In this document: positions 2,029 through 31,143 of the stretch, one piece after another
How the letters are laid out: every line of letters begins with the position of its first letter
How positions within the stretch are numbered: position 1 is the first letter of the stretch
Source of the DNA: an uncultured Candidatus Saccharibacteria bacterium
Lineage (GTDB): Bacteria; Patescibacteriota; Minisyncoccia; Sungbacterales; SURF-37
Direction: 5' to 3'
NCBI GenBank assembly: GCA_964373495.1
Contig: CAYJUW010000002.1
Coordinates: 1 to 35,714, forward strand
Length of the DNA stretch: 35,714 nt
Made by a program: the position numbers and the translations under genes
The notes under the pieces: model-generated
The model's database searches: none
The model's input: the letters and a program-made list of their open reading frames with translations, nothing else
What the model was told of the DNA's origin: nothing

Positions 2029-2200
2029 AAAATCCCAATTTCTAAATCCTAACAGAAACGAATCTCTAAATCCTAATCTCTAATCTCTAAATACGTTCAA
2101 AACCCAAATCTCAAAGTGTTTTGAATTTTTAAATTTGAGATTGTTTAGAGATTAGAAATTATTTGGCAGTTCGGATTTCGTGCTTTGGATTTATGCGCAG
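2029..2200. repeat. AT-rich intergenic module A: inverted arrays of degenerate heptads (CTAAATC/CTAATCT .. TTTAGAG/ATTAGAA)
   Basis: Arms TCTAATCTCTAAA / TTTAGAGATTAGA, CAAATCTCAAA / TTTGAGATT and TTCAAAAC / GTTTTGAA. Shares CTCTAAATCCTAATCTC (2064-2080) with 7101-7117, and TCGGATTTCGTGCTT (2171-2185) with modules E and F. Confidence 0.75.
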
Positions 2201-3556: not shown

Positions 3557-3657
3557 AGTTTTTAATTTTCCAATTATCAACTTTCAATTTTCAATAAATT
3601 TTTAATGATTCAATTTTCAACCAATTTGAAAATTGAAAATTGGTCATTGAAAATTCT
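3557..3657. repeat. AT-rich intergenic module D (TTTCAATTTTCAAT arrays with inverted arm TTGAAAATTGAAAATTGG)
   Basis: Read directly. Uses the same word family as module C. Confidence 0.7.
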
Positions 3658-4460: not shown

Positions 4461-5264
4461 TTACCCGTAATATTTGTCTTTATAAAACCGAATCAGCTGC
4501 TCAACCTCGGTGATGATCTCCGGCGAGCCAATGCCGACCTTCAACTTCTGCTGCACGCTATCGAGATCCGTGGCCCCTTCCAGCACCGCCTCCTCAATGT
4601 CATGATCGGTGATATTCAACTTCGGATCAATGACCCGCGCCCCCTCCACGATGACCCGCCCGTGCTGGCCGGTGCGATGGAAATAGTCATTGGCCGCCTT
4701 GCGAAAGGCCTTATCCGCCAGCACCGAGCAATGGATCTTGCGGTTCGGCAGTCCGCCCAGGCGCTCCATGATGTGCTGCGGCCTGACCTGCAAGGCCTCG
4801 GCAATCGGCATCCCGTCGTTTTCGGTAACCATGACGGAAAAAATTGACGTTGCACTAATTGCGGACGCGCACCCGAACGTACGCCATTTCAATTCCTTGA
4901 TCCGCTCCGTCTCCGGCTCGATCTTCAGCCACATGACCATGAGGTCGCCGCACGCTGGGCTCCCGACCATACCCTTGGCGCTGTACGCGCCCTCGTCGGG
5001 ATCCTCCAGCATTAAATTCCGCGGATTGAAAAAGTGGTCCTTGACGATCGGCGAATAGTACCACTTCTCACCGGTGAACTGGTTGACGACGTCAATCGGC
5101 GCTGGCGGCTCACCAGCCCGCCCCGCCCCGTTAGAAATATCATTTCTAACGGGGCCCGCGCTAACCGAAGCCGCTGCCGAGGTTTGCTGCAGGGCGGACC
5201 GGTTGACGACGTCAACCGGCGATGGGGCAGCGTCCGATGGCTGGTTGTCGTGTTCTGCGCTCAT
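4461..5264 (-). CDS. nifU: NifU/IscU-type Fe-S scaffold with repeat-derived N-terminal extension and cysteine-less BFD-like C-terminal domain
   Basis: IscU core (VKDHFFNPRN, SPACGD, GCASAI, HCSVLA). About 75 aa precede the usual start. The tail ITDHDIEEAVLEGATDLDSVQQKLKVGIGSP resembles a BFD-like domain without its Cys ligands. Confidence 0.85.
   Translation of the reverse strand: MSAEHDNQPSDAAPSPVDVVNRSALQQTSAAASVSAGPVRNDISNGAGRAGEPPAPIDVVNQFTGEKWYYSPIVKDHFFNPRNLMLEDPDEGAYSAKGMVGSPACGDLMVMWLKIEPETERIKELKWRTFGCASAISATSIFSVMVTENDGMPIAEALQVRPQHIMERLGGLPNRKIHCSVLADKAFRKAANDYFHRTGQHGRVIVEGARVIDPKLNITDHDIEEAVLEGATDLDSVQQKLKVGIGSPEIITEVEQLIRFYKDKYYG
5081..5221. repeat. 21-nt direct repeats GGTTGACGACGTCAAYCGGCG (5081-5101, 5201-5221), 120 nt apart, bracketing the palindrome inside nifU
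   Basis: Read directly, one mismatch. They encode the duplicated peptide P-x-P-(V/I)-DVVN. Confidence 0.85.
5126..5154. repeat. Palindromic repeat copy 1: CCCCGTTAGAAAT-ATC-ATTTCTAACGGGG (inside nifU CDS)
   Basis: 13-bp perfect arms. Translated in frame as GPVRNDISNGAG. Confidence 0.9.
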
Positions 5265-7789: not shown

Positions 7790-9148
7790 TTACCGGCCTT
7801 GACGTTCGGAAAAGAAATGGGGCGCTGGTAAGGCACTTGGCTGGCGCAGACCCAAAGTCGTTCTCAAAAGCATGAACCCAATGGCCGCGGCGAGCGCGAG
7901 GCCTGCGCCATAGGAGAACGCCGCGTGGCTGCCGAAGCGCTGGCTCAAGTAGCCGAAGATAACGCTCGCCGGCAGGAGGGCCAAGCCGGTAAAGGCGTTA
8001 TAGATGCCAAAAGCCGTGGCGCGGACTTCGGGCGCGACAAGGCCGGCTACGATGGCGCGGCCCACGCCTTCAGTGAGGGCCGCGTAGATACCATAGGCGA
8101 TGAAAAGGAGCCAGATGCTTTTGGCCGATGCGCCATACGCAAGGCCCAAGTAGACCGCCGCAAACACGAGGAGCCCAACCGCAAAGGTGTTGCGCTTGCC
8201 TACGCGATCCGCGAGCGCGCCGAACGGCGCGGCGAGAATCGCAGCGGTGGTGTTGAACGCGAAGTAGAGGATGGGAAGAAGCGCAATGGCAATGCCGACA
8301 TCCCGGGCCTTCAAAATCAAAAAGGCCTCCGAGGCCTTGCCGAGCGAGGCCAGGGTGGCCACGCCGAGGAAGAGGAAAAAGGGAGCGCCGAGGGGCACGA
8401 AACGACTCAGCGCTCCTTCTCTCGAATCGGTTCCCGAATGAGCACGAATAGGCCCCCGAATGTCGGAGATGACGGGGCGCTCCGGTGTTACTCTATTTCC
8501 CTTATCTTCTATATTCTCTCTATCTGCCATCCTCTCGCCAGCCAGTACCTCGCGAACAAAGAAGATAAGGATCAGAACCGCAAAAAAGCTGGCGACGAAC
8601 GAGAGTAGAAAGAGTGTGCGCAGGTTGCCGCCGATGAAGGGCAAAATGGCAAAAGCCGCGAGCGGACCAATGGCCGCGCCGAGCGTATCCATACCGCGGT
8701 GAAAGCCAAAGGCCCGGCCAAAGACCTGCCGCTCGGTGGATAAGCTGATCAGGGCGTCGCGGGGCGCGTCGCGCGTGCCCTTGCCCACGCGATCCATGAA
8801 GCGCACGCCAAGCACGTGCCACGGCACGGCGGCGGCCGCGAGGAACGGCTTGGCCAGTGCGGAGAGCGAGTAGCCGATGACCACGAGGCGCTTTCGCTTC
8901 TGCCACTTGTCCGAGAGCCATCCGGAAAAAATTTTCAAAATGCTCGCCGTGGCCTCGGCCACGCCCTCCACGATCCCGACGAAGGTGAGCGAAGCCCCCA
9001 AAACCGAAGTCAAAAAAATCGGAATGAACGGAAAAATCATGTCCGAGGACAGGTCGTTCAGAAAGCTCACCACCCCCATCCAGACCACGTTTGGCGAGAG
9101 GCCGAGGAAGCCCCGCCGCGGAACCGCTGTTTCTTTTGCCGACTGCAT
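7790..9148 (-). CDS. MFS transporter (12-TM type) with charged central-loop insert
   Basis: 452 aa with many hydrophobic helices. MFS-like N-terminus FLNDLSSDMIFPFIPIFL and loop motif DRVGKRN. Confidence 0.85.
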   Translation of the reverse strand: MQSAKETAVPRRGFLGLSPNVVWMGVVSFLNDLSSDMIFPFIPIFLTSVLGASLTFVGIVEGVAEATASILKIFSGWLSDKWQKRKRLVVIGYSLSALAKPFLAAAAVPWHVLGVRFMDRVGKGTRDAPRDALISLSTERQVFGRAFGFHRGMDTLGAAIGPLAAFAILPFIGGNLRTLFLLSFVASFFAVLILIFFVREVLAGERMADRENIEDKGNRVTPERPVISDIRGPIRAHSGTDSREGALSRFVPLGAPFFLFLGVATLASLGKASEAFLILKARDVGIAIALLPILYFAFNTTAAILAAPFGALADRVGKRNTFAVGLLVFAAVYLGLAYGASAKSIWLLFIAYGIYAALTEGVGRAIVAGLVAPEVRATAFGIYNAFTGLALLPASVIFGYLSQRFGSHAAFSYGAGLALAAAIGFMLLRTTLGLRQPSALPAPHFFSERQGR

Positions 9149-9277: not shown

Positions 9278-9306
9278 CCCCGTTAGAAACTCCGTTTCTA
9301 ACGGGG
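9278..9306. repeat. Palindromic repeat copy 2: CCCCGTTAGAAAC-TCC-GTTTCTAACGGGG (intergenic)
   Basis: 13-bp perfect arms. The flank continues the symmetry (…GGGGTGAA). Confidence 0.9.
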
Positions 9307-10548: not shown

Positions 10549-10690
10549 TCGCTAATCATACCGAAATCCGAAGCGCGAAGCACGAAATCCGAAACAAATC
10601 CCAATGACCAAAATTCAAAACGTGCTTGGAGTTTTGGCGTTCGGATTTTGAATTTTTGTTTCGGGTTTCGGATTTAGGGTTTAGGGTTTC
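10549..10690. repeat. AT-rich intergenic module F (CCGAAAT/CCGAAGC heptad array, AAAATTCAAAA .. TTTTGAATTTT hairpin, TTTCGGG/TTTCGGA/TTTAGGG array)
   Basis: GAAGCACGAAATCCGA (10578-10593) is the reverse complement of the 2171-2186 word. The terminal 18-mer TTTAGGGTTTAGGGTTTC (10673-10690) is identical to 2961-2978. Confidence 0.75.
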
Positions 10691-11125: not shown

Positions 11126-12175
11126 AAATTCCCCTTTGAAATGCAACTGCCATAGTATGCAGTTGTATGAAGAAACGTGAGTGGTTTCGGCATTTGACGG
11201 ATAAGGATCGGGACCGTATCCAGGCGCTGCGCGATGACTGGCACTCCCAGCAGGCGATCGCCGAGGTGCTCGGGGTATCGAAGAGCGCCATCTCCCGCGA
11301 ACTGCGGCGCAATCCCACCCGAGTGGGACGCTACGTCGCGGATCGTGCCGCATGGGATGCCTGGGTCAAGCGCAGCCGGAGCAAGTACCCGGGCATGAAG
11401 ATTGAGGAGCACTCGGAGCTCCGGCGCTGCGTCATCCGAGCCTTACAAAGGCTCCGTGCTCCGGATGAGATCGCCGGGCATCTCAAACGCATCGGTGCCT
11501 CACCCCGTGTCGGCACAAACGCCATCTACAAATGGCTGTATGCTGAAGATGGCCACCCGTATTGCCGATACTTGTGCACTCGACGGACCCGCAGACGACG
11601 CCAAAGGGGTGTTTCAAAACGGGTTCTGATACCGGACAGAATACCGCTTCAGGAGCGACCCAATGAGCCTGGGCTCATCCATGCTGAACGCGATCTCTTC
11701 GTATCTCCCCGCCGGGCGCACTCCCGAGGTACGGGTCTCCTCATCGTCGTGCCGGAAACGAAACTCCTCGCAGGTTCGATCCTGCCGAATCGGGAGAGTG
11801 CGATCGTGATGCGATCGGCGAAAACACATTTCGATCGAATGCGCGTTGACACCTGCACCGCAGACAATGGCATCGAAAACGTCGCGCATGCGGCGAGTGG
11901 GGTTCCGACCTACTTCTGCGATCGCGGCGCGCCGTGGCAGAAACCCCATGTGGAGGGCGCGATCGGTCTCGTTCGCCGCTGGTTTCTTCCTAAGGGCACC
12001 GACCTCGCGCTGGTACCCGACCTCGTCTTCCAATCCCAGCTGCATCTTCTGAACGGGAAGTACCGCAAGTCGCTCGGCTATCGGAGCGCGTATGAAGCCG
12101 CACTCGAACGGGGTATCATCACCACAGTACCGCGATTATCCCTAACCCAGGCAGTTGCATTTCGCTAGGGAATTT
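11126..12175 (+). mobile_element. IS30-family insertion sequence (~1050 bp) with ~26-bp terminal inverted repeats
   Basis: IRL AAATTCCCCTTTGAAATGCAACTGCC (11126-11151) versus the reverse complement of IRR GGCAGTTGCATTTCGCTAGGGAATTT (12150-12175). The transposase stop lies inside IRR. No clear target duplication was seen. Confidence 0.8.
11167..12168 (+). CDS. IS30-family DDE transposase
   Basis: N-terminal HTH (QQAIAEVLGVSKSAISRELRRN). DDE blocks HAERDLF, CTADNGIEN and YFCDRGAPWQKPHVEGAIGLVRRWFLPKGTD. Confidence 0.85.
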   Translation: MKKREWFRHLTDKDRDRIQALRDDWHSQQAIAEVLGVSKSAISRELRRNPTRVGRYVADRAAWDAWVKRSRSKYPGMKIEEHSELRRCVIRALQRLRAPDEIAGHLKRIGASPRVGTNAIYKWLYAEDGHPYCRYLCTRRTRRRRQRGVSKRVLIPDRIPLQERPNEPGLIHAERDLFVSPRRAHSRGTGLLIVVPETKLLAGSILPNRESAIVMRSAKTHFDRMRVDTCTADNGIENVAHAASGVPTYFCDRGAPWQKPHVEGAIGLVRRWFLPKGTDLALVPDLVFQSQLHLLNGKYRKSLGYRSAYEAALERGIITTVPRLSLTQAVAFR

Positions 12176-12896: not shown

Positions 12897-12969
12897 CTCC
12901 GGGGCCTGGATTCGAACCAGGATCTCGTGGTCCAGAGCCACGCGAGCATACCAGTTGCTCCACCCCGGA
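12897..12969 (-). tRNA. tRNA-Gln (anticodon CUG), no encoded CCA
   Basis: Manual cloverleaf: TCCGGGG TG GAGC AACTGGTAT GCTC G CGTGG CTCTGGA CCACG AGAT CCTGG TTCGAAT CCAGG CCCCGGA G. It has U1-A72 and G73. Confidence 0.85.
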
Positions 12970-12973
12970 ATAA

Positions 12974-13888
12974 TCAATATCTTCTAAATTTAACCTGTTT
13001 TGAAAATTTTTCAACCTCGCGCTTCTTTCTGAGTCTGGTCGAGGTAGTCCTAAACTCCGGATGGTACCCAAGTAACCGTAATCCTCGCCCTACGATCTGC
13101 AGTAAACTTACATTCCGATTTGAAAATTGCAGGTTATACGTGTACGTCGGCGGGTGTATCGAGAGCGAACCCTCCGCCTCGAAAAGCCCTCGCAACAGCC
13201 GAATGACATGGCGCTTGTTACCCCAAATCCATCTCGGTATCCCAATCGTCAGATCCCTCCGGCTCCCCGCGGGAACCCCGAGCCGTCCTGAAATGTCTGT
13301 CTGATATAACCTGATTCTGACGCAATTCTTTCCTGTAACGCGACTGACCGTTGGTTGTTTTCTGAATATCCTTCGCGTCAAGCGAGCATACCGGTTGATG
13401 AAGCCGGGATTATTTGAGTTCGCAGAGATCGTCATCCCCTCGGTTCTAGGGAATTTAGTTATGTTCCCATCGCCGAGCATAACGCCAATGAATTCTGCAA
13501 GATCGCCGTTCTTTGGAAGACGTTTTATGGCGTACACTGCGCACCGGCGCCCCAGACGAAAAAACCAGCCTCGGGCTTTAGCTTTTTCCCTCCAGACAGC
13601 GAAATTATCAATGTGCTTCTGCCGAAACGTTTCTGAAATCTTTGCTACGCCCGGATGCGTTTCTTTGGTGTACCCGGTATTCCACGGCGGCGGGCGCCGG
13701 CGCAAACTCAATCGCCACCGGCGGTAGCGGGGATCGGACTCCGAGAGCGTGCCGACATTGACCCCAAAACCGGTGATCTTTGTTTTAAAGCGACGGTTAT
13801 AGGCGGCGACTGAAGTCCGGTGTTCTCGACCGAGATGCGTATGGGTGATGACCGCGAACCGCTTGCCGCAAAACTGGCAGGCAATCAT
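12974..13888 (-). CDS. Free-standing double-motif LAGLIDADG homing endonuclease with N-terminal Cys2His2-like finger and NUMOD3-like motif
   Basis: LAEFIGVMLGDGNI and LLRGLFEAEGSL form the two LAGLIDADG motifs. N-terminus is CQFCGKRFAVITHTHLGREH, followed by WNTGYTKETHPGVAKISE. Confidence 0.85.
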   Translation of the reverse strand: MIACQFCGKRFAVITHTHLGREHRTSVAAYNRRFKTKITGFGVNVGTLSESDPRYRRWRLSLRRRPPPWNTGYTKETHPGVAKISETFRQKHIDNFAVWREKAKARGWFFRLGRRCAVYAIKRLPKNGDLAEFIGVMLGDGNITKFPRTEGMTISANSNNPGFINRYARLTRRIFRKQPTVSRVTGKNCVRIRLYQTDISGRLGVPAGSRRDLTIGIPRWIWGNKRHVIRLLRGLFEAEGSLSIHPPTYTYNLQFSNRNVSLLQIVGRGLRLLGYHPEFRTTSTRLRKKREVEKFSKQVKFRRY

Positions 13889-16857: not shown

Positions 16858-16891
16858 AACACCGGGCGCGCCTGCAGGCGCGCCCGGTGTT
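16858..16891. terminator. 34-nt perfect palindrome AACACCGGGCGCGCCTGCAGGCGCGCCCGGTGTT
   Basis: 17-bp arms with no loop, followed by TTTT on the + strand. Lies between tRNA-Met and the membrane-protein gene. Confidence 0.5.
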
Positions 16892-23292: not shown

Positions 23293-23336
23293 GGTGTTAA
23301 CTTCAATTGACCGATCGGTCAATTGAAGTTAACACC
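23293..23336. repeat. 44-nt perfect palindrome GGTGTTAACTTCAATTGACCGA|TCGGTCAATTGAAGTTAACACC
   Basis: 22-bp arms with no mismatch. AT-rich relative to its surroundings. Lies 15 nt after the malic-enzyme stop and 76 nt before the pheS ATG. Confidence 0.9.
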
Positions 23337-26624: not shown

Positions 26625-26852
26625 ATGTCATACCAGTACACCTATCTCATCTGGAACGGGATCTTCCTCCTTATCTGGTTGATTCTCTATCTCTGGCGGA
26701 AAGATATCCGGCGAGAAATGTCGAGGGTGAGCATTTGGGAAAAATTTCCTTGCCGCGGGGCTGTAATTTTGCTACTATGGGAATGTCATGAGAGCCTCAA
26801 CCATCGTCAAAACCACGAAGGATTACCTGCTCCTCAAGGTGCCACTGCCTAG
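26625..26852 (+). pseudogene. Possible truncated membrane-protein gene (only the first ~33 codons look native)
   Basis: MSYQYTYLIWNGIFLLIWLILYLWRKDIRREM is TM-like. The remainder is low-quality sequence that overlaps the antitoxin ORF. Confidence 0.25.
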
Positions 26853-27003
26853 GGGCTCCCATTTTGCGGTGGGGCCGGTGCGGCAGAACGGACGATTGAC
26901 GCGGGCCGAAAAGTGGCTCTGGAAGATCATCCAGGAGGGTGAGCGGGAGTACCGAGAAGGGAAGCTGAAGCCGATCCGGTCGCTGCGCGAGCTTATGCGC
27001 TAG
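26788..27003 (+). CDS. Putative antitoxin (71 aa) of the adjacent RelE/ParE-type toxin
   Basis: Small ORF ending 8 nt before the toxin ATG, which is classic TA geometry. No family-level motif recognised. Confidence 0.45.
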   Translation: MRASTIVKTTKDYLLLKVPLPRGSHFAVGPVRQNGRLTRAEKWLWKIIQEGEREYREGKLKPIRSLRELMR

Positions 27004-27010
27004 CTTCCCC

Positions 27011-27360
27011 ATGTCCATTCGGACGATCTACCCGACCTCGCGGTTCAAAAAATCCTTCCGCCGTTTGCCCCGCGAGATCCAAGAACGGGCCGCCCGGCGT
27101 GAGGAGATATTCGTCGCCGACCCCTTTGATTCACCCCGTTACAACCGGGCGTCCCATGCTTCACCCCGTTAGATAGTTTATCTAACGGGGCAAGGGCCGG
27201 GTTGTAACGGGGTTCACGGCTGGATACCCACAAGACAAAAGGGAAACTGAAGGGGTTCTGGTCGTACTCCGTGGACTTCCCCTGTCGAGTCCTTTTTCGT
27301 TTTATAGATCAAGAAACGGTCATCTACTACGACGTCGGTGGTCATTCGATCTACCGCTGA
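27011..27360 (+). pseudogene. RelE/ParE-family toxin gene disrupted by an 83-nt palindromic insertion
   Basis: The N-part MSIRTIYPTSRFKKSFRRLPREIQERAARREEIFVADPFDS runs into a TAG inside the repeat. The C-part LDTHKTKGKLKGFWSYSVDFPCRVLFRFIDQETVIYYDVGGHSIYR* is in another frame. Deleting 27135-27217 fuses them into an 88-aa ORF. Confidence 0.75.
27135..27217. mobile_element. Nested palindromic repeat insertion (copies 3 and 4), MITE-like, flanked by TTCAC/TTCAC
   Basis: Outer arms are CCCCGTTACAACC (27134-27146) and GGTTGTAACGGGG (27200-27212). Inner palindrome is CCCCGTTAGATA-GTT-TATCTAACGGGG (27164-27190). TTCAC occurs at 27130-27134 and 27213-27217. Confidence 0.7.

Positions 27361-31143
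<3,783 letters not shown>

What the first reader, a model, noticed from the sequence alone, without database searches (positions are those of the whole stretch)
27011..27360. RelE/ParE toxin gene inactivated by an 83-nt nested palindromic insertion; excision restores an 88-aa ORF exactly
The toxin N-terminus (frame of the ATG at 27011) ends at a TAG inside the repeat. The C-terminal half (…KGKLKGFWSYSVDF…YYDVGGHSIYR*) is in a different frame. Removing 27135-27217 (83 nt, bounded by TTCAC at 27130-27134 and 27213-27217) joins GAT TCA C|GG CTG and gives …DPFDSRLDTHKTKGKLKG…, a normal RelE/ParE-length protein. This is direct evidence that the palindromic element inserts, possibly with a 4-5-bp target duplication. 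It also leaves an orphan antitoxin (26788-27003). One palindrome sits inside another, which implies two insertion events or a composite element.
Basis: partly seen in the sequence, partly recalled or inferred. Interest (0 to 1): 0.7.

Follow-up and report, generated by a model that had tools for sequence, protein, structure and literature searches.

The report
Mobile hairpin element splits toxin gene
An 83-base hairpin-forming mobile DNA element has inserted into, and broken, the toxin gene of a toxin-antitoxin pair in an uncultivated Sungbacteria-like bacterium; it belongs to a family of miniature hairpin elements, apparently undescribed, that occurs in many bacterial phyla and sometimes sits in frame inside essential genes.

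Summary
Deleting 83 nt (27134-27216, or any of six equivalent windows, because TTCAC is repeated) joins the two halves into an 88-aa protein. This protein aligns without a gap to intact 88-aa homologues (up to 80% identity). Their family profile matches HigB/YafQ/RelE toxins. Two syntenic relatives (antitoxin, toxin, gyrB) have the uninterrupted site. An independent assembly carries the identical filled allele.

The insert is a 79-nt palindrome flanked by a 4-nt direct repeat (TTCA). A 27-nt hairpin of the same family is nested in its loop. The window holds three more copies, one of them a 105-nt in-frame insertion in the gyrB N-terminus.

The core hairpin (CCCCGTTAGAAA...TTTCTAACGGGG) occurs in more than 120 genome contigs from many phyla. 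Of 157 copies, 93 have an exactly 4-nt flanking duplication (consensus R|YWWR|Y). Nesting recurs in other genomes.

The best reading is a MITE-like foldback element that makes a 4-bp target duplication and recently inactivated the toxin. No partner transposase was found. About 40% of copies lack matching flanks, and this is unexplained. No Rfam family or searchable paper covers the motif.

The gene disruption itself is ordinary. The element family is the interesting part.

The parts
26788..27003 (+). Antitoxin gene (71 aa), intact, now without a functional partner toxin
   Evidence: ORF. It is conserved and syntenic in L001 (86 aa) and L002 (70 aa). It has no Pfam, NCBIfam or PDB match. The antitoxin role is inferred from its position upstream of the toxin.
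27011..27133 (+). Toxin gene, native codons 1-41 (M...DPFDS). Reading continues into the element and stops at the TAG at 27170-27172.
27130..27133 (.). Left copy of the 4-nt direct repeat TTCA (target-site duplication)
   Evidence: Family-wide 4-nt repeat.
27134..27212 (.). Outer hairpin element: a 79-nt palindrome, CCCCGTTACAACCGGGC...GCCGGGTTGTAACGGGG
   Evidence: It is absent from the orthologous sites in L001 and L002.
27164..27190 (.). Inner hairpin element (27 nt, CCCCGTTAGATA-GTT-TATCTAACGGGG), nested in the loop of the outer one. Its flanks are TTCA (27160-27163) and CAAG (27191-27194), which are not a duplication.
   Evidence: Nested arrangements in other genomes.
27213..27216 (.). 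Right copy of the 4-nt direct repeat TTCA
27217..27360 (+). Toxin gene, native codons 42-88 plus the stop (RLDTHKTKG...HSIYR*), in a different frame from the N-terminal part
27434..27538 (+). Another copy of the family: TTCA plus a 101-nt palindrome, 105 nt = 35 codons, in frame in the N-terminal tail of gyrB (translated as VHPVRN...KVSNG)
   Evidence: The empty site in L002 reads GCCTCGG|CAAGCTACAC.
5126..5154 (.). 29-nt copy with CCCG/CCCG flanks, inside the N-terminal extension of the NifU-like ORF (read as GPVRNDISNG)
9278..9306 (.). 29-nt copy with TGAA/TGAA flanks, located outside the annotated genes, upstream of the MFS transporter gene (7790-9148, minus strand)

Best explanation
A non-autonomous, MITE-like foldback (hairpin) element inserted into codon 41/42 of a higB/yafQ-type RelE-superfamily toxin gene.

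The element consists of 12-14-nt terminal inverted repeats beginning CCCCGTTAGAAA and a variable interior. It inserts at tetranucleotides of the form Y-W-W-R, which become duplicated on both sides. In this case the tetranucleotide is TTCA, in GAT|TCA|CGG.

The 83 added bases (a 79-nt palindrome plus one 4-nt repeat) shift the reading frame and bring a TAG into frame. Only a 53-aa fragment can then be made, and it lacks the conserved C-terminal half. The antitoxin gene upstream stays intact.

A second, smaller copy lies in the loop of the first. This is most simply a second insertion, because the same nesting recurs in other genomes.

The event is recent: the two halves carry no other lesion and show no excess of amino-acid changes.

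Shown here: the insertion, its exact boundaries, the 4-nt duplication, the toxin family, and the family-wide target pattern.

Inferred: a staggered 4-nt cut by a transposase supplied in trans. The candidate type is DDE, piggyBac/IS1380-like. No such enzyme was found.

The stated confidence applies to 'mobile hairpin element insertion that inactivated the toxin gene'. Confidence in the DDE-type mechanism specifically is about 0.5.
For: - Gapless restoration of an 88-aa protein with 80% identity to intact homologues.
- Empty sites in the syntenic relatives L001 and L002.
- HigB/YafQ/RelE profile matches.
- The identical filled allele in an independent assembly.
- Five copies in the 36-kb window, but none in 20 kb of L002 or in 12.9 kb (L212) and 5.7 kb (L213) of closer relatives, whose L11 proteins are 90-92% identical.
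- The same hairpin in more than 120 genome contigs.
- A flanking repeat of exactly 4 nt in 93 of 153-157 copies, against about 15 expected. These include rare tetranucleotides (CGAG, CCCG, TCAG, TATA), which only a true target duplication explains.
- Reconstructed target R|YWWR|Y, with 100% Y at position 1 and 100% R at position 4.
- Subfamilies with the same interior at different loci within one genome, for example the 40-nt type in MGQQ01.
- Nested copies with their own repeats in L107 and L066.
- Toxin dN/dS of 0.03-0.15, with no acceleration in the window lineage.
- piggyBac-superfamily features reported in the literature: a 4-bp duplication (TTAA, with TAAA, CTAA and TCAA variants), termini starting CCC, and IS1380 as the prokaryotic relative (PMC10813416; PMC5718144).
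Against: - No transposase with these ends was found in the window or in 0.85 Mb of hairpin-bearing loci.
- tblastn and phmmer with the ISEcp1 (IS1380) transposase found nothing there.
- About 40% of copies lack matching flanks. The inner copy and the gyrB copy of this window are among them. At gyrB the empty site in L002 has CAAG, but the filled site has TTCA on the left, so at least some insertions are not simple duplications.
- Elements of 27-29 nt seem too short to synapse two ends as duplex DNA.
- Both arms co-vary, which is more typical of elements recognised as hairpins.
- TTAA, the classic piggyBac target, is rare: 1 of 93.
Confidence: 0.75

Rival explanations
1. The insertion is the same, but the mechanism is different. 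The element moves as a single-stranded DNA hairpin through an HUH/Y1 transposase, like IS200/IS605 PATEs or REP elements with their RAYT. It carries one flanking tetranucleotide with it and lands next to a similar tetranucleotide, so the 'duplication' is really target plus element end.
For: - The hairpin is directly adjacent to a conserved-type tetranucleotide.
- The arms co-vary at positions 1 and 9-14.
- Elements can be as small as 27 nt.
- The gyrB site fits 'TTCA + hairpin inserted next to CAAG' exactly.
- Four of the five window copies share TTCA/TGAA on at least one side.
- The preference is asymmetric, TTTA followed by C in 21 of 26 cases, mimicking the left junction TTTA|C.
Against: - Identical flanks for rare tetranucleotides cannot arise from a fixed element end.
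- The 40-nt subfamily has the same interior but either TTTA or TTCA flanks, so no internal guide co-varies with the flank.
- No Y1 transposase or RAYT homologue was detected.
- No orientation bias relative to genes.
Confidence: 0.2
2. The toxin is switched off reversibly rather than permanently. Precise excision of the palindrome plus one repeat, as in piggyBac-type or IS200-type seamless excision, or deletion between the 5-nt TTCAC repeats, restores a functional toxin in a subpopulation. The locus would then behave as a phase-variable toxin-antitoxin module.
For: - Excision restores the ORF exactly.
- The toxin halves are otherwise intact and conserved.
- The antitoxin is retained.
- Palindromes flanked by direct repeats are known deletion hotspots (general knowledge).
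Against: - No intact allele more than 80% identical exists among 5.8 billion proteins.
- The only other assembly of this population is the filled allele.
- One unusual substitution (C in place of a near-invariant aromatic residue in DF-x-Y/F-RV) hints at relaxed constraint.
Confidence: 0.1
3. The gene is still expressed by programmed translational bypassing. The ribosome takes off at TCA (27131-27133) and lands on the identical TCA (27214-27216), skipping 83 nt, as in phage T4 gene 60 or the mitochondrial byp elements.
For: - The matching take-off and landing codons are each in frame with their own half.
- A strong hairpin starts at the take-off site.
- The gene is otherwise intact.
Against: - There is no stop codon or rare codon right after the take-off codon; the next codon is CCC.
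- The gap is 83 nt, against 50 nt in gene 60.
- The matched codons are an automatic by-product of any 4-nt duplication.
- The same element family lies mostly outside ORFs.
Confidence: 0.03
4. The palindrome is an assembly or amplification artefact, that is, chimeric fold-back DNA.
For: Palindromes break assemblies: the Logan contig ends inside the inner hairpin.
Against: - The junction sequence is identical in two assemblies.
- The same conserved motif, with 4-nt duplications, occurs in more than 120 contigs from many studies.
- In-frame copies lie inside gyrB and other genes.
Confidence: 0.02

Closest known systems
Bacterial MITEs and palindromic repeats that insert into genes (Neisseria Correia elements, Rickettsia palindromic elements; cited from general knowledge)
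   Same: The elements are small, non-coding and multi-copy, with terminal inverted repeats and a short target duplication. They can disrupt genes. When their length is a multiple of 3 they persist in frame as extra peptides, here PVRN...SNG or FTPLE...FLTG.
   Different: They are much smaller (27-130 nt). The same 12-nt termini occur across many phyla. The interiors are hypervariable and nesting is frequent. About 40% of copies lack matching flanks. No parent insertion sequence was found.
piggyBac superfamily / IS1380 family DDE transposons
   Same: They share a 4-bp target duplication of the T-W-W-A type. TAAA, CTAA and TCAA are recorded piggyBac variants (PMC10813416). Their termini begin CCC or CC; ISEcp1 ends in CCTAGA.../CCTAAA.... 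Seamless excision would restore the gene.
   Different: No transposase of this family was detected. TTAA itself is almost absent (1 of 93). The termini are similar only in the leading C's and, from my own recollection of the piggyBac end CCCTAGAAAG, in a TAGAAA core. This is a lead and was not tested.
REP elements with RAYT transposases, and IS200/IS605-derived PATEs
   Same: A short hairpin is directly preceded by a tetranucleotide. The stems co-vary. The elements are very small and often clustered or nested.
   Different: Those elements make no target duplication and use a fixed tetranucleotide. Here rare tetranucleotides are duplicated, and no Y1 transposase homologue was found.
HigB / YafQ / RelE type II toxin-antitoxin modules
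   Same: The repaired toxin is 88 aa. The family profile matches HigB structures and HigB-like, YafQ and ParE Pfam models. A small upstream partner gene lies 7 nt away, and the pair is conserved in relatives.
   Different: The antitoxin matches no known family. The toxin is split in this genome.
Programmed translational bypassing (T4 gene 60; mitochondrial byp elements; cited from general knowledge)
   Same: There is a non-coding hairpin-containing gap between matching take-off and landing codons (TCA/TCA).
   Different: There is no stop codon after the take-off codon, the gap is longer, and there is no evidence of expression.

Membership tests
RelE/ParE superfamily toxin (HigB/YafQ-like) | Sequence match to the family profiles over the whole domain | tested here: met
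Of 16 aligned family members, 15 hit HigB-like_toxin, best E = 3e-7. The family profile hits HigB structure 4mct_B at E = 9e-5.
RelE/ParE superfamily toxin (HigB/YafQ-like) | Small size (about 85-95 aa) and a two-gene operon with a small adjacent antitoxin gene | tested here: met
   The repaired protein is 88 aa. A 71-aa upstream ORF ends 7 nt before the toxin ATG. The same pair lies next to gyrB in L001 and L002.
RelE/ParE superfamily toxin (HigB/YafQ-like) | Catalytic residues and mRNA-cleaving activity | not testable with these tools
MITE (non-autonomous DDE transposon derivative) | Terminal inverted repeats, no coding capacity, multiple copies | tested here: met
   The perfect arms are 12-14 nt. 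Elements are 27-130 nt. There are five copies in the window and more than 150 in other genomes.
MITE (non-autonomous DDE transposon derivative) | Target-site duplication of fixed length | tested here: met
   The outer toxin copy has TTCA/TTCA. Family-wide the duplication is exactly 4 nt in 93 of 157 copies, against about 15 expected. It is not met for the inner copy or the gyrB copy (TTCA/CAAG).
MITE (non-autonomous DDE transposon derivative) | A related autonomous element with the same ends that encodes the transposase | tested here: not met
   No long element with these ends was found in the window or in 0.85 Mb of loci. The window's IS30-family element has unrelated inverted repeats. Whole genomes were not searchable.
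piggyBac / IS1380 superfamily | 4-bp duplication and termini beginning CC(C) | tested here: met
   The ISEcp1 ends were read.
piggyBac / IS1380 superfamily | A DDD/DDE transposase of this superfamily | tested here: not met
   tblastn and phmmer with the ISEcp1 transposase gave no hit in the window or the hairpin loci. The test has low power, because a trans-acting gene could lie anywhere in the genome.
IS200/IS605 PATE or REP-RAYT | No target duplication; insertion next to one fixed tetra- or pentanucleotide | tested here: not met
   There are 23 different duplicated tetranucleotides, including rare ones.
IS200/IS605 PATE or REP-RAYT | An associated Y1 (HUH) transposase | tested here: not met
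   tblastn and phmmer with E. coli RayT gave no credible hit. The best hit, E = 0.12, lies within a 340-aa ORF (L113 1785-2807) that resembles a glycosyltransferase by eye (no family search was run on it).
Programmed translational bypass (gene 60 type) | Matching take-off and landing codons, with a stop codon immediately after take-off | tested here: not met
   TCA/TCA match, but the next codon is CCC, and the first stop is 13 codons downstream of the take-off codon.
Known structured RNA family (Rfam) | A match at the gathering score | tested here: not met
   No match over the element in the window or in 17 loci. Only far-sub-threshold matches to generic hairpins (miRNA precursors) were found.

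The most novel reading that the evidence does not exclude
The hairpin belongs to an undescribed family of ultra-small (27-130 nt) foldback transposons that spans many phyla. Its features are CCCCGTTAGAAA termini, a strict 4-bp R|YWWR|Y target duplication, and self-nesting. Its insertions are often multiples of 3 and are tolerated in frame inside essential genes (gyrB here; a translation-GTPase gene, identified as infB by eye, and prepilin-like genes elsewhere). It may be mobilised by a piggyBac/IS1380-like enzyme that carries donor-site flanks to new sites, which would explain the recurrent TTCA...CAAG flanks. Such an enzyme excises seamlessly, so genes such as this toxin could be switched off and on.
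Probability: 0.3. Interest if true: 0.75.

Novelty: new variant of a known kind. Interest (0 to 1): 0.55.

Why it matters
For this locus, the result is a clean, datable case of a toxin-antitoxin module losing its toxin while keeping the antitoxin. Both the empty site and the filled site are in hand.

More broadly, the same 12-nt hairpin termini with 4-bp duplications appear in Patescibacteria, Omnitrophota, Planctomycetota, Nitrospirota, Desulfobacterota, Elusimicrobia and even a DPANN archaeal bin. This points to a very small mobile element that either crosses phylum boundaries or depends on a widely shared enzyme.

The elements insert into coding sequence and can add peptides to essential proteins. 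They also break metagenome assemblies at palindromes and cause split-gene annotation errors. Recognising them would improve gene calling in genomes of uncultivated organisms and would define a new substrate for transposase discovery.

Tried and rejected
- Rfam, at gathering score on the window and 17 loci and at E-value threshold on the region: nothing relevant.
- BLAST of a 49-nt family member against the plasmid and phage collections: no match. IMG/VR: only 3 contigs, so viruses are not obviously the carrier.
- JGI metagenome scan with the repaired toxin: no close relative (best 55%) and no polymorphic allele.
- Search for an autonomous element: unpaired ends, long-range end pairs, recurrent neighbouring protein families, and ORFs inside the best candidate (L123). 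All were negative.
- The window's IS30-family transposase as the mobiliser: rejected, because its inverted repeats are unrelated.
- Homology searches with the ISEcp1 transposase and with RayT: negative.
- Integron attC site: rejected by inspection. The conserved GTT...AAC cores are in the opposite order, and the CCCC/GGGG ends do not fit.
- Transcription terminator: rejected. There is no T-run and no orientation bias relative to genes.
- A 5-bp duplication with an asymmetric element: rejected. Of 93 copies, 21 have neither the G on the left nor the C on the right that this model requires.
- Longer duplications outside the TTCA...CAAG flanks (L061, L098, L022): suggestive but inconsistent in register, so left unexplained. 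The 'ORFs' through the L022 and L061 copies look non-coding.
- Literature: five searches failed for technical reasons. Later searches found no paper containing the motif or describing such elements in CPR bacteria.

Full report
**1. The observation**

- The ATG at 27011 opens a 53-aa ORF that ends at the TAG at 27170-27172. The conserved C-terminal part ends at 27360 in a different frame.
- The intervening DNA is a 79-nt palindrome (27134-27212; arms ACCCCGTTACAACCGGGC / GCCGGGTTGTAACGGGGT, 94% complementary).
- A perfect 27-nt hairpin (27164-27190) sits in its loop.
- TTCA(C) flanks the palindrome on both sides (27130-27134 and 27213-27217).
- Removing 83 nt gives an 88-aa ORF.
- CCCCGTTA occurs 10 times in the window against 1.0 expected.
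- As single-stranded DNA the insert folds into a nested hairpin (-32.5 kcal/mol, z = -7.7).

**2. The split gene is a RelE-superfamily toxin and the extra DNA is an insertion**

The repaired protein finds 30 homologues. Six of them are exactly 88 aa long, with 61-80% identity and 99-100% coverage. The alignment has no gap at the junction...NPFD(P/S)RLDTHK....

On its own the sequence is just under the curated cutoffs, but the matches run the full length of the models (ParE_toxin, HigB-like, YafQ, RelE_StbE). Of 16 aligned family members, 15 match HigB-like_toxin. The family profile hits solved HigB and RelK structures.

Contigs that encode the two best-documented homologues are syntenic with the window: pheS/pheT, small antitoxin, 88-aa toxin, gyrB, then SecE-NusG-L11. 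A DNA alignment shows an uninterrupted site in both.

An independent Logan assembly (ERR3478686) is identical to the window through the antitoxin, the toxin N-half and the insertion, and it breaks inside the inner hairpin. The insertion is therefore real and is not specific to one assembler.

No intact allele closer than 80% exists in the 5.8-billion-protein collection.

**3. Age and consequences**
- Synonymous sites between the window and its relatives are saturated. Non-synonymous divergence is low (dN 0.11-0.17; dN/dS 0.03-0.15), and the window lineage shows no acceleration.
- The repaired gene has no other lesion. The disruption is therefore recent relative to the divergence of these lineages.
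- One substitution replaces a near-invariant aromatic residue (DF-P-C-RV). It may be an early sign of relaxed constraint.
- The truncated product keeps 41 native residues and lacks the conserved C-terminal half (H46, R65, R69, Y78, Y87).
- The 71-aa upstream gene is intact and conserved, but it matches no known antitoxin family. Its role is inferred from its position.

**4. The element family in the window**

Besides the two nested copies there are three more.
- 5126-5154: 29 nt, CCCG/CCCG flanks, in the N-terminal extension of a NifU-like ORF.
- 9278-9306: 29 nt, TGAA/TGAA flanks, outside the annotated genes.
- 27438-27538: 101 nt, in the gyrB N-terminal tail.

In gyrB, relative L002 reads GCCTCGG|CAAGCTACAC where the window reads GCCTCGG-TTCA-[101-nt palindrome]-CAAGCTACAC. 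The net insertion is 105 nt, or 35 codons, translated as VHPVRN...KVSNG.

Relatives have no copies: L002 (20 kb), L212 (12.9 kb) and L213 (5.7 kb); the L11 proteins of L212 and L213 are 90-92% identical to the window's. The family therefore expanded specifically in this lineage. L11 homologues place the lineage among Candidatus Sungbacteria (Patescibacteria/CPR).

**5. The family elsewhere**

An exact-pattern scan of one genome per species found the hairpin CCCCGTTAGAWA-N(1-30)-TWTCTAACGGGG in more than 120 contigs. The contigs come from Omnitrophota, Patescibacteria, Planctomycetota, Nitrospirota, Desulfobacterota, Elusimicrobia, Saccharibacteria, Gammaproteobacteria, Clostridia and an Aenigmatarchaeota bin.

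Statistics on 153-158 copies:
- The perfect stem is 12-14 nt. The interior runs from 1 to about 130 nt and is highly variable, although subfamilies with a conserved interior recur, sometimes at different loci of one genome.
- The adjacent direct repeat is exactly 4 nt in 92-93 copies, against about 15 expected. Almost none are 5 nt or longer.
- The reconstructed target is R|Y-W-W-R|Y. Positions 1 and 4 are 100% Y and R. TTTA/TAAA make up half of the targets. Rare tetranucleotides are also duplicated.
- Nested left-left-right-right arrangements, and tandems that share a 4-nt spacer, recur.
- Copies are depleted inside long ORFs compared with random positions (34% against 78%). About a quarter (36) lie in long open frames, and 34 of those 36 have (palindrome + 4) divisible by 3. 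They read as NPVRN...SNGVK or FTPLE...FLTGFT. One example is an ORF that looks by eye like IF-2 (it clusters with translation GTPases); others lie at the GFTLIEL motif of prepilin-like proteins. Some of these open frames look non-coding on inspection.
- In copies not selected by the search pattern, the two arms co-vary at positions 1 and 9-14.

**6. Mechanism**

The sharp 4-nt duplication, which includes rare tetranucleotides, and the target consensus (near-symmetric when both orientations are pooled, though the TTTA class prefers a following C) argue for a staggered 4-nt cut in duplex DNA, followed by repair. This is the behaviour of a DDE-type cut-and-paste element. The small palindromes are its non-autonomous (MITE/foldback) derivatives.

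Among known superfamilies, a 4-bp duplication of the T-W-W-A kind together with termini beginning CCC is characteristic of piggyBac. Its prokaryotic relative is IS1380 (PMC10813416; PMC5718144). ISEcp1 indeed ends CCTAGA.../CCTAAA.... This is a resemblance and has not been tested as membership. No such transposase, and no Y1/RAYT-type enzyme, was detectable in the window or in 0.85 Mb of hairpin-bearing loci.

Three observations do not fit a simple model:
- About 40% of copies have non-matching flanks.
- The combination TTCA...CAAG recurs in seven copies (two in this window, five in five other sources).
- At gyrB the left flank is clearly not a copy of the target.

One speculative reconciliation is carry-over of 4-nt donor flanks, as in the piggyBac excision product. 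This would also explain why four of the five window copies bear TTCA/TGAA. The arm co-variation could reflect recognition of the element as a hairpin, or quasipalindrome correction during replication. The single-strand HUH model is kept as the main rival.

**7. Other readings of the toxin locus**
- Translational bypassing is formally possible, because the TCA take-off and landing codons are each in frame. But matched codons follow automatically from the duplication, and no stop codon follows the take-off site.
- A reversible switch by precise excision cannot be excluded without read-level data.
- An artefact is very unlikely.

**8. Comparison with what is known, and novelty**

A MITE-like insertion that inactivates a toxin gene is an ordinary kind of event.

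The element family is not covered by Rfam. It is absent from the plasmid and phage collections. Its motif appears in no searchable paper, and no paper on such elements in CPR bacteria was found. The literature tool covers only open-access text, so prior description elsewhere cannot be excluded.

I rate it a new variant of a known kind: a miniature foldback transposon with an unusual size range, phylogenetic spread and flank behaviour.

**9. Verdict**

Two refinements apply: the duplication is 4 bp, and the two-event origin of the nesting is plausible but unproven for this copy. Interest is moderate. It comes mainly from the element family rather than from the pseudogene.

Noticed in passing
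window 27434-27538: A 105-nt in-frame copy of the same hairpin family lies in the N-terminal tail of gyrB. It adds 35 residues (VHPVRN...KVSNG) compared with the orthologues in L001 and L002. Its flanks are TTCA/CAAG, not a duplication, although the empty site G|CAAG|C fits the target consensus exactly.
   Followed up: yes
window 29077-30660: gyrB carries a ~528-aa intein-like insertion inside the TDAD|(V)DGAHIRTL motif ([10 protein letters not shown]...GGFALHN). Orthologous GyrB proteins in relatives are 710 aa, against 1259 aa here.
   Followed up: partly
window 11126-12175: An IS30-family insertion sequence: a 333-aa transposase (NF033563, 96 bits, above its cutoff) with 26-nt inverted repeats at 11126-11151 and 12150-12175. 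It is unrelated to the hairpin family.
   Followed up: partly
window 12974-13888 (- strand): A free-standing 304-aa ORF with a LAGLIDADG_3 homing-endonuclease-like domain, next to a tRNA gene (12897-12969).
   Followed up: no
window 5078-5217: Two copies of a 23-nt motif, CGCCG(G/A)TTGACGTCGTCAACC(G/A)G, which is itself palindromic around GTTGACG/CGTCAAC. They flank the 5126-5154 hairpin upstream of the NifU-like domain. This could be an operator pair or a local duplication. The annotated N-terminal extension may not be translated.
   Followed up: no
window 23293-23336 and 16858-16891: Perfect palindromes of 44 nt (GGTGTTAACTTCAATTGACCGA/TCGGTCAATTGAAGTTAACACC, between the malic enzyme gene and pheS) and of 34 nt (AACACCGGGCGCGCCTG/CAGGCGCGCCCGGTGTT). 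Neither is related to the hairpin family.
   Followed up: no
window 2074-2161, 2848-2921, 3567-3655, 10563-10690: AT-rich, low-complexity inverted-repeat blocks (TAATCTCTAA..., TTTCAATTTTCAA..., GAAATCCGAAGC...) lie in intergenic regions of an otherwise 59% GC window.
   Followed up: no
L027 and L045 (Phycisphaerae MAGs); L021 (Jorgensenbacteria MAG): Hairpin copies are translated in frame inside the conserved GFTLIEL prepilin-type N-terminal motif (…GFTPLE…FLTGFTLIEL…) and inside an ORF that looks by eye like IF-2 (…EKINPVRNSSISNGVKIILKADN…). The preferred target TTTAC coincides with Phe-Thr codons.
   Followed up: partly
L066 2513-2720; L087 6124-6231: Tandem hairpin copies are separated by exactly one shared 4-nt spacer (CTCA-e-CTCA-e-CTCA; TCCG-e-TGAA-e-CAAA). 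L066, L057 and L075 carry a variant in which the terminal C-G pair is changed to T-A on both arms.
   Followed up: partly
L159 and L163 (JGI metagenome contigs Ga0209342): A weak IS1380-like transposase hit (23% identity over 291 aa to ISEcp1, E = 2e-4) lies next to a RelE-like toxin homologue. These contigs have no hairpin copies.
   Followed up: partly
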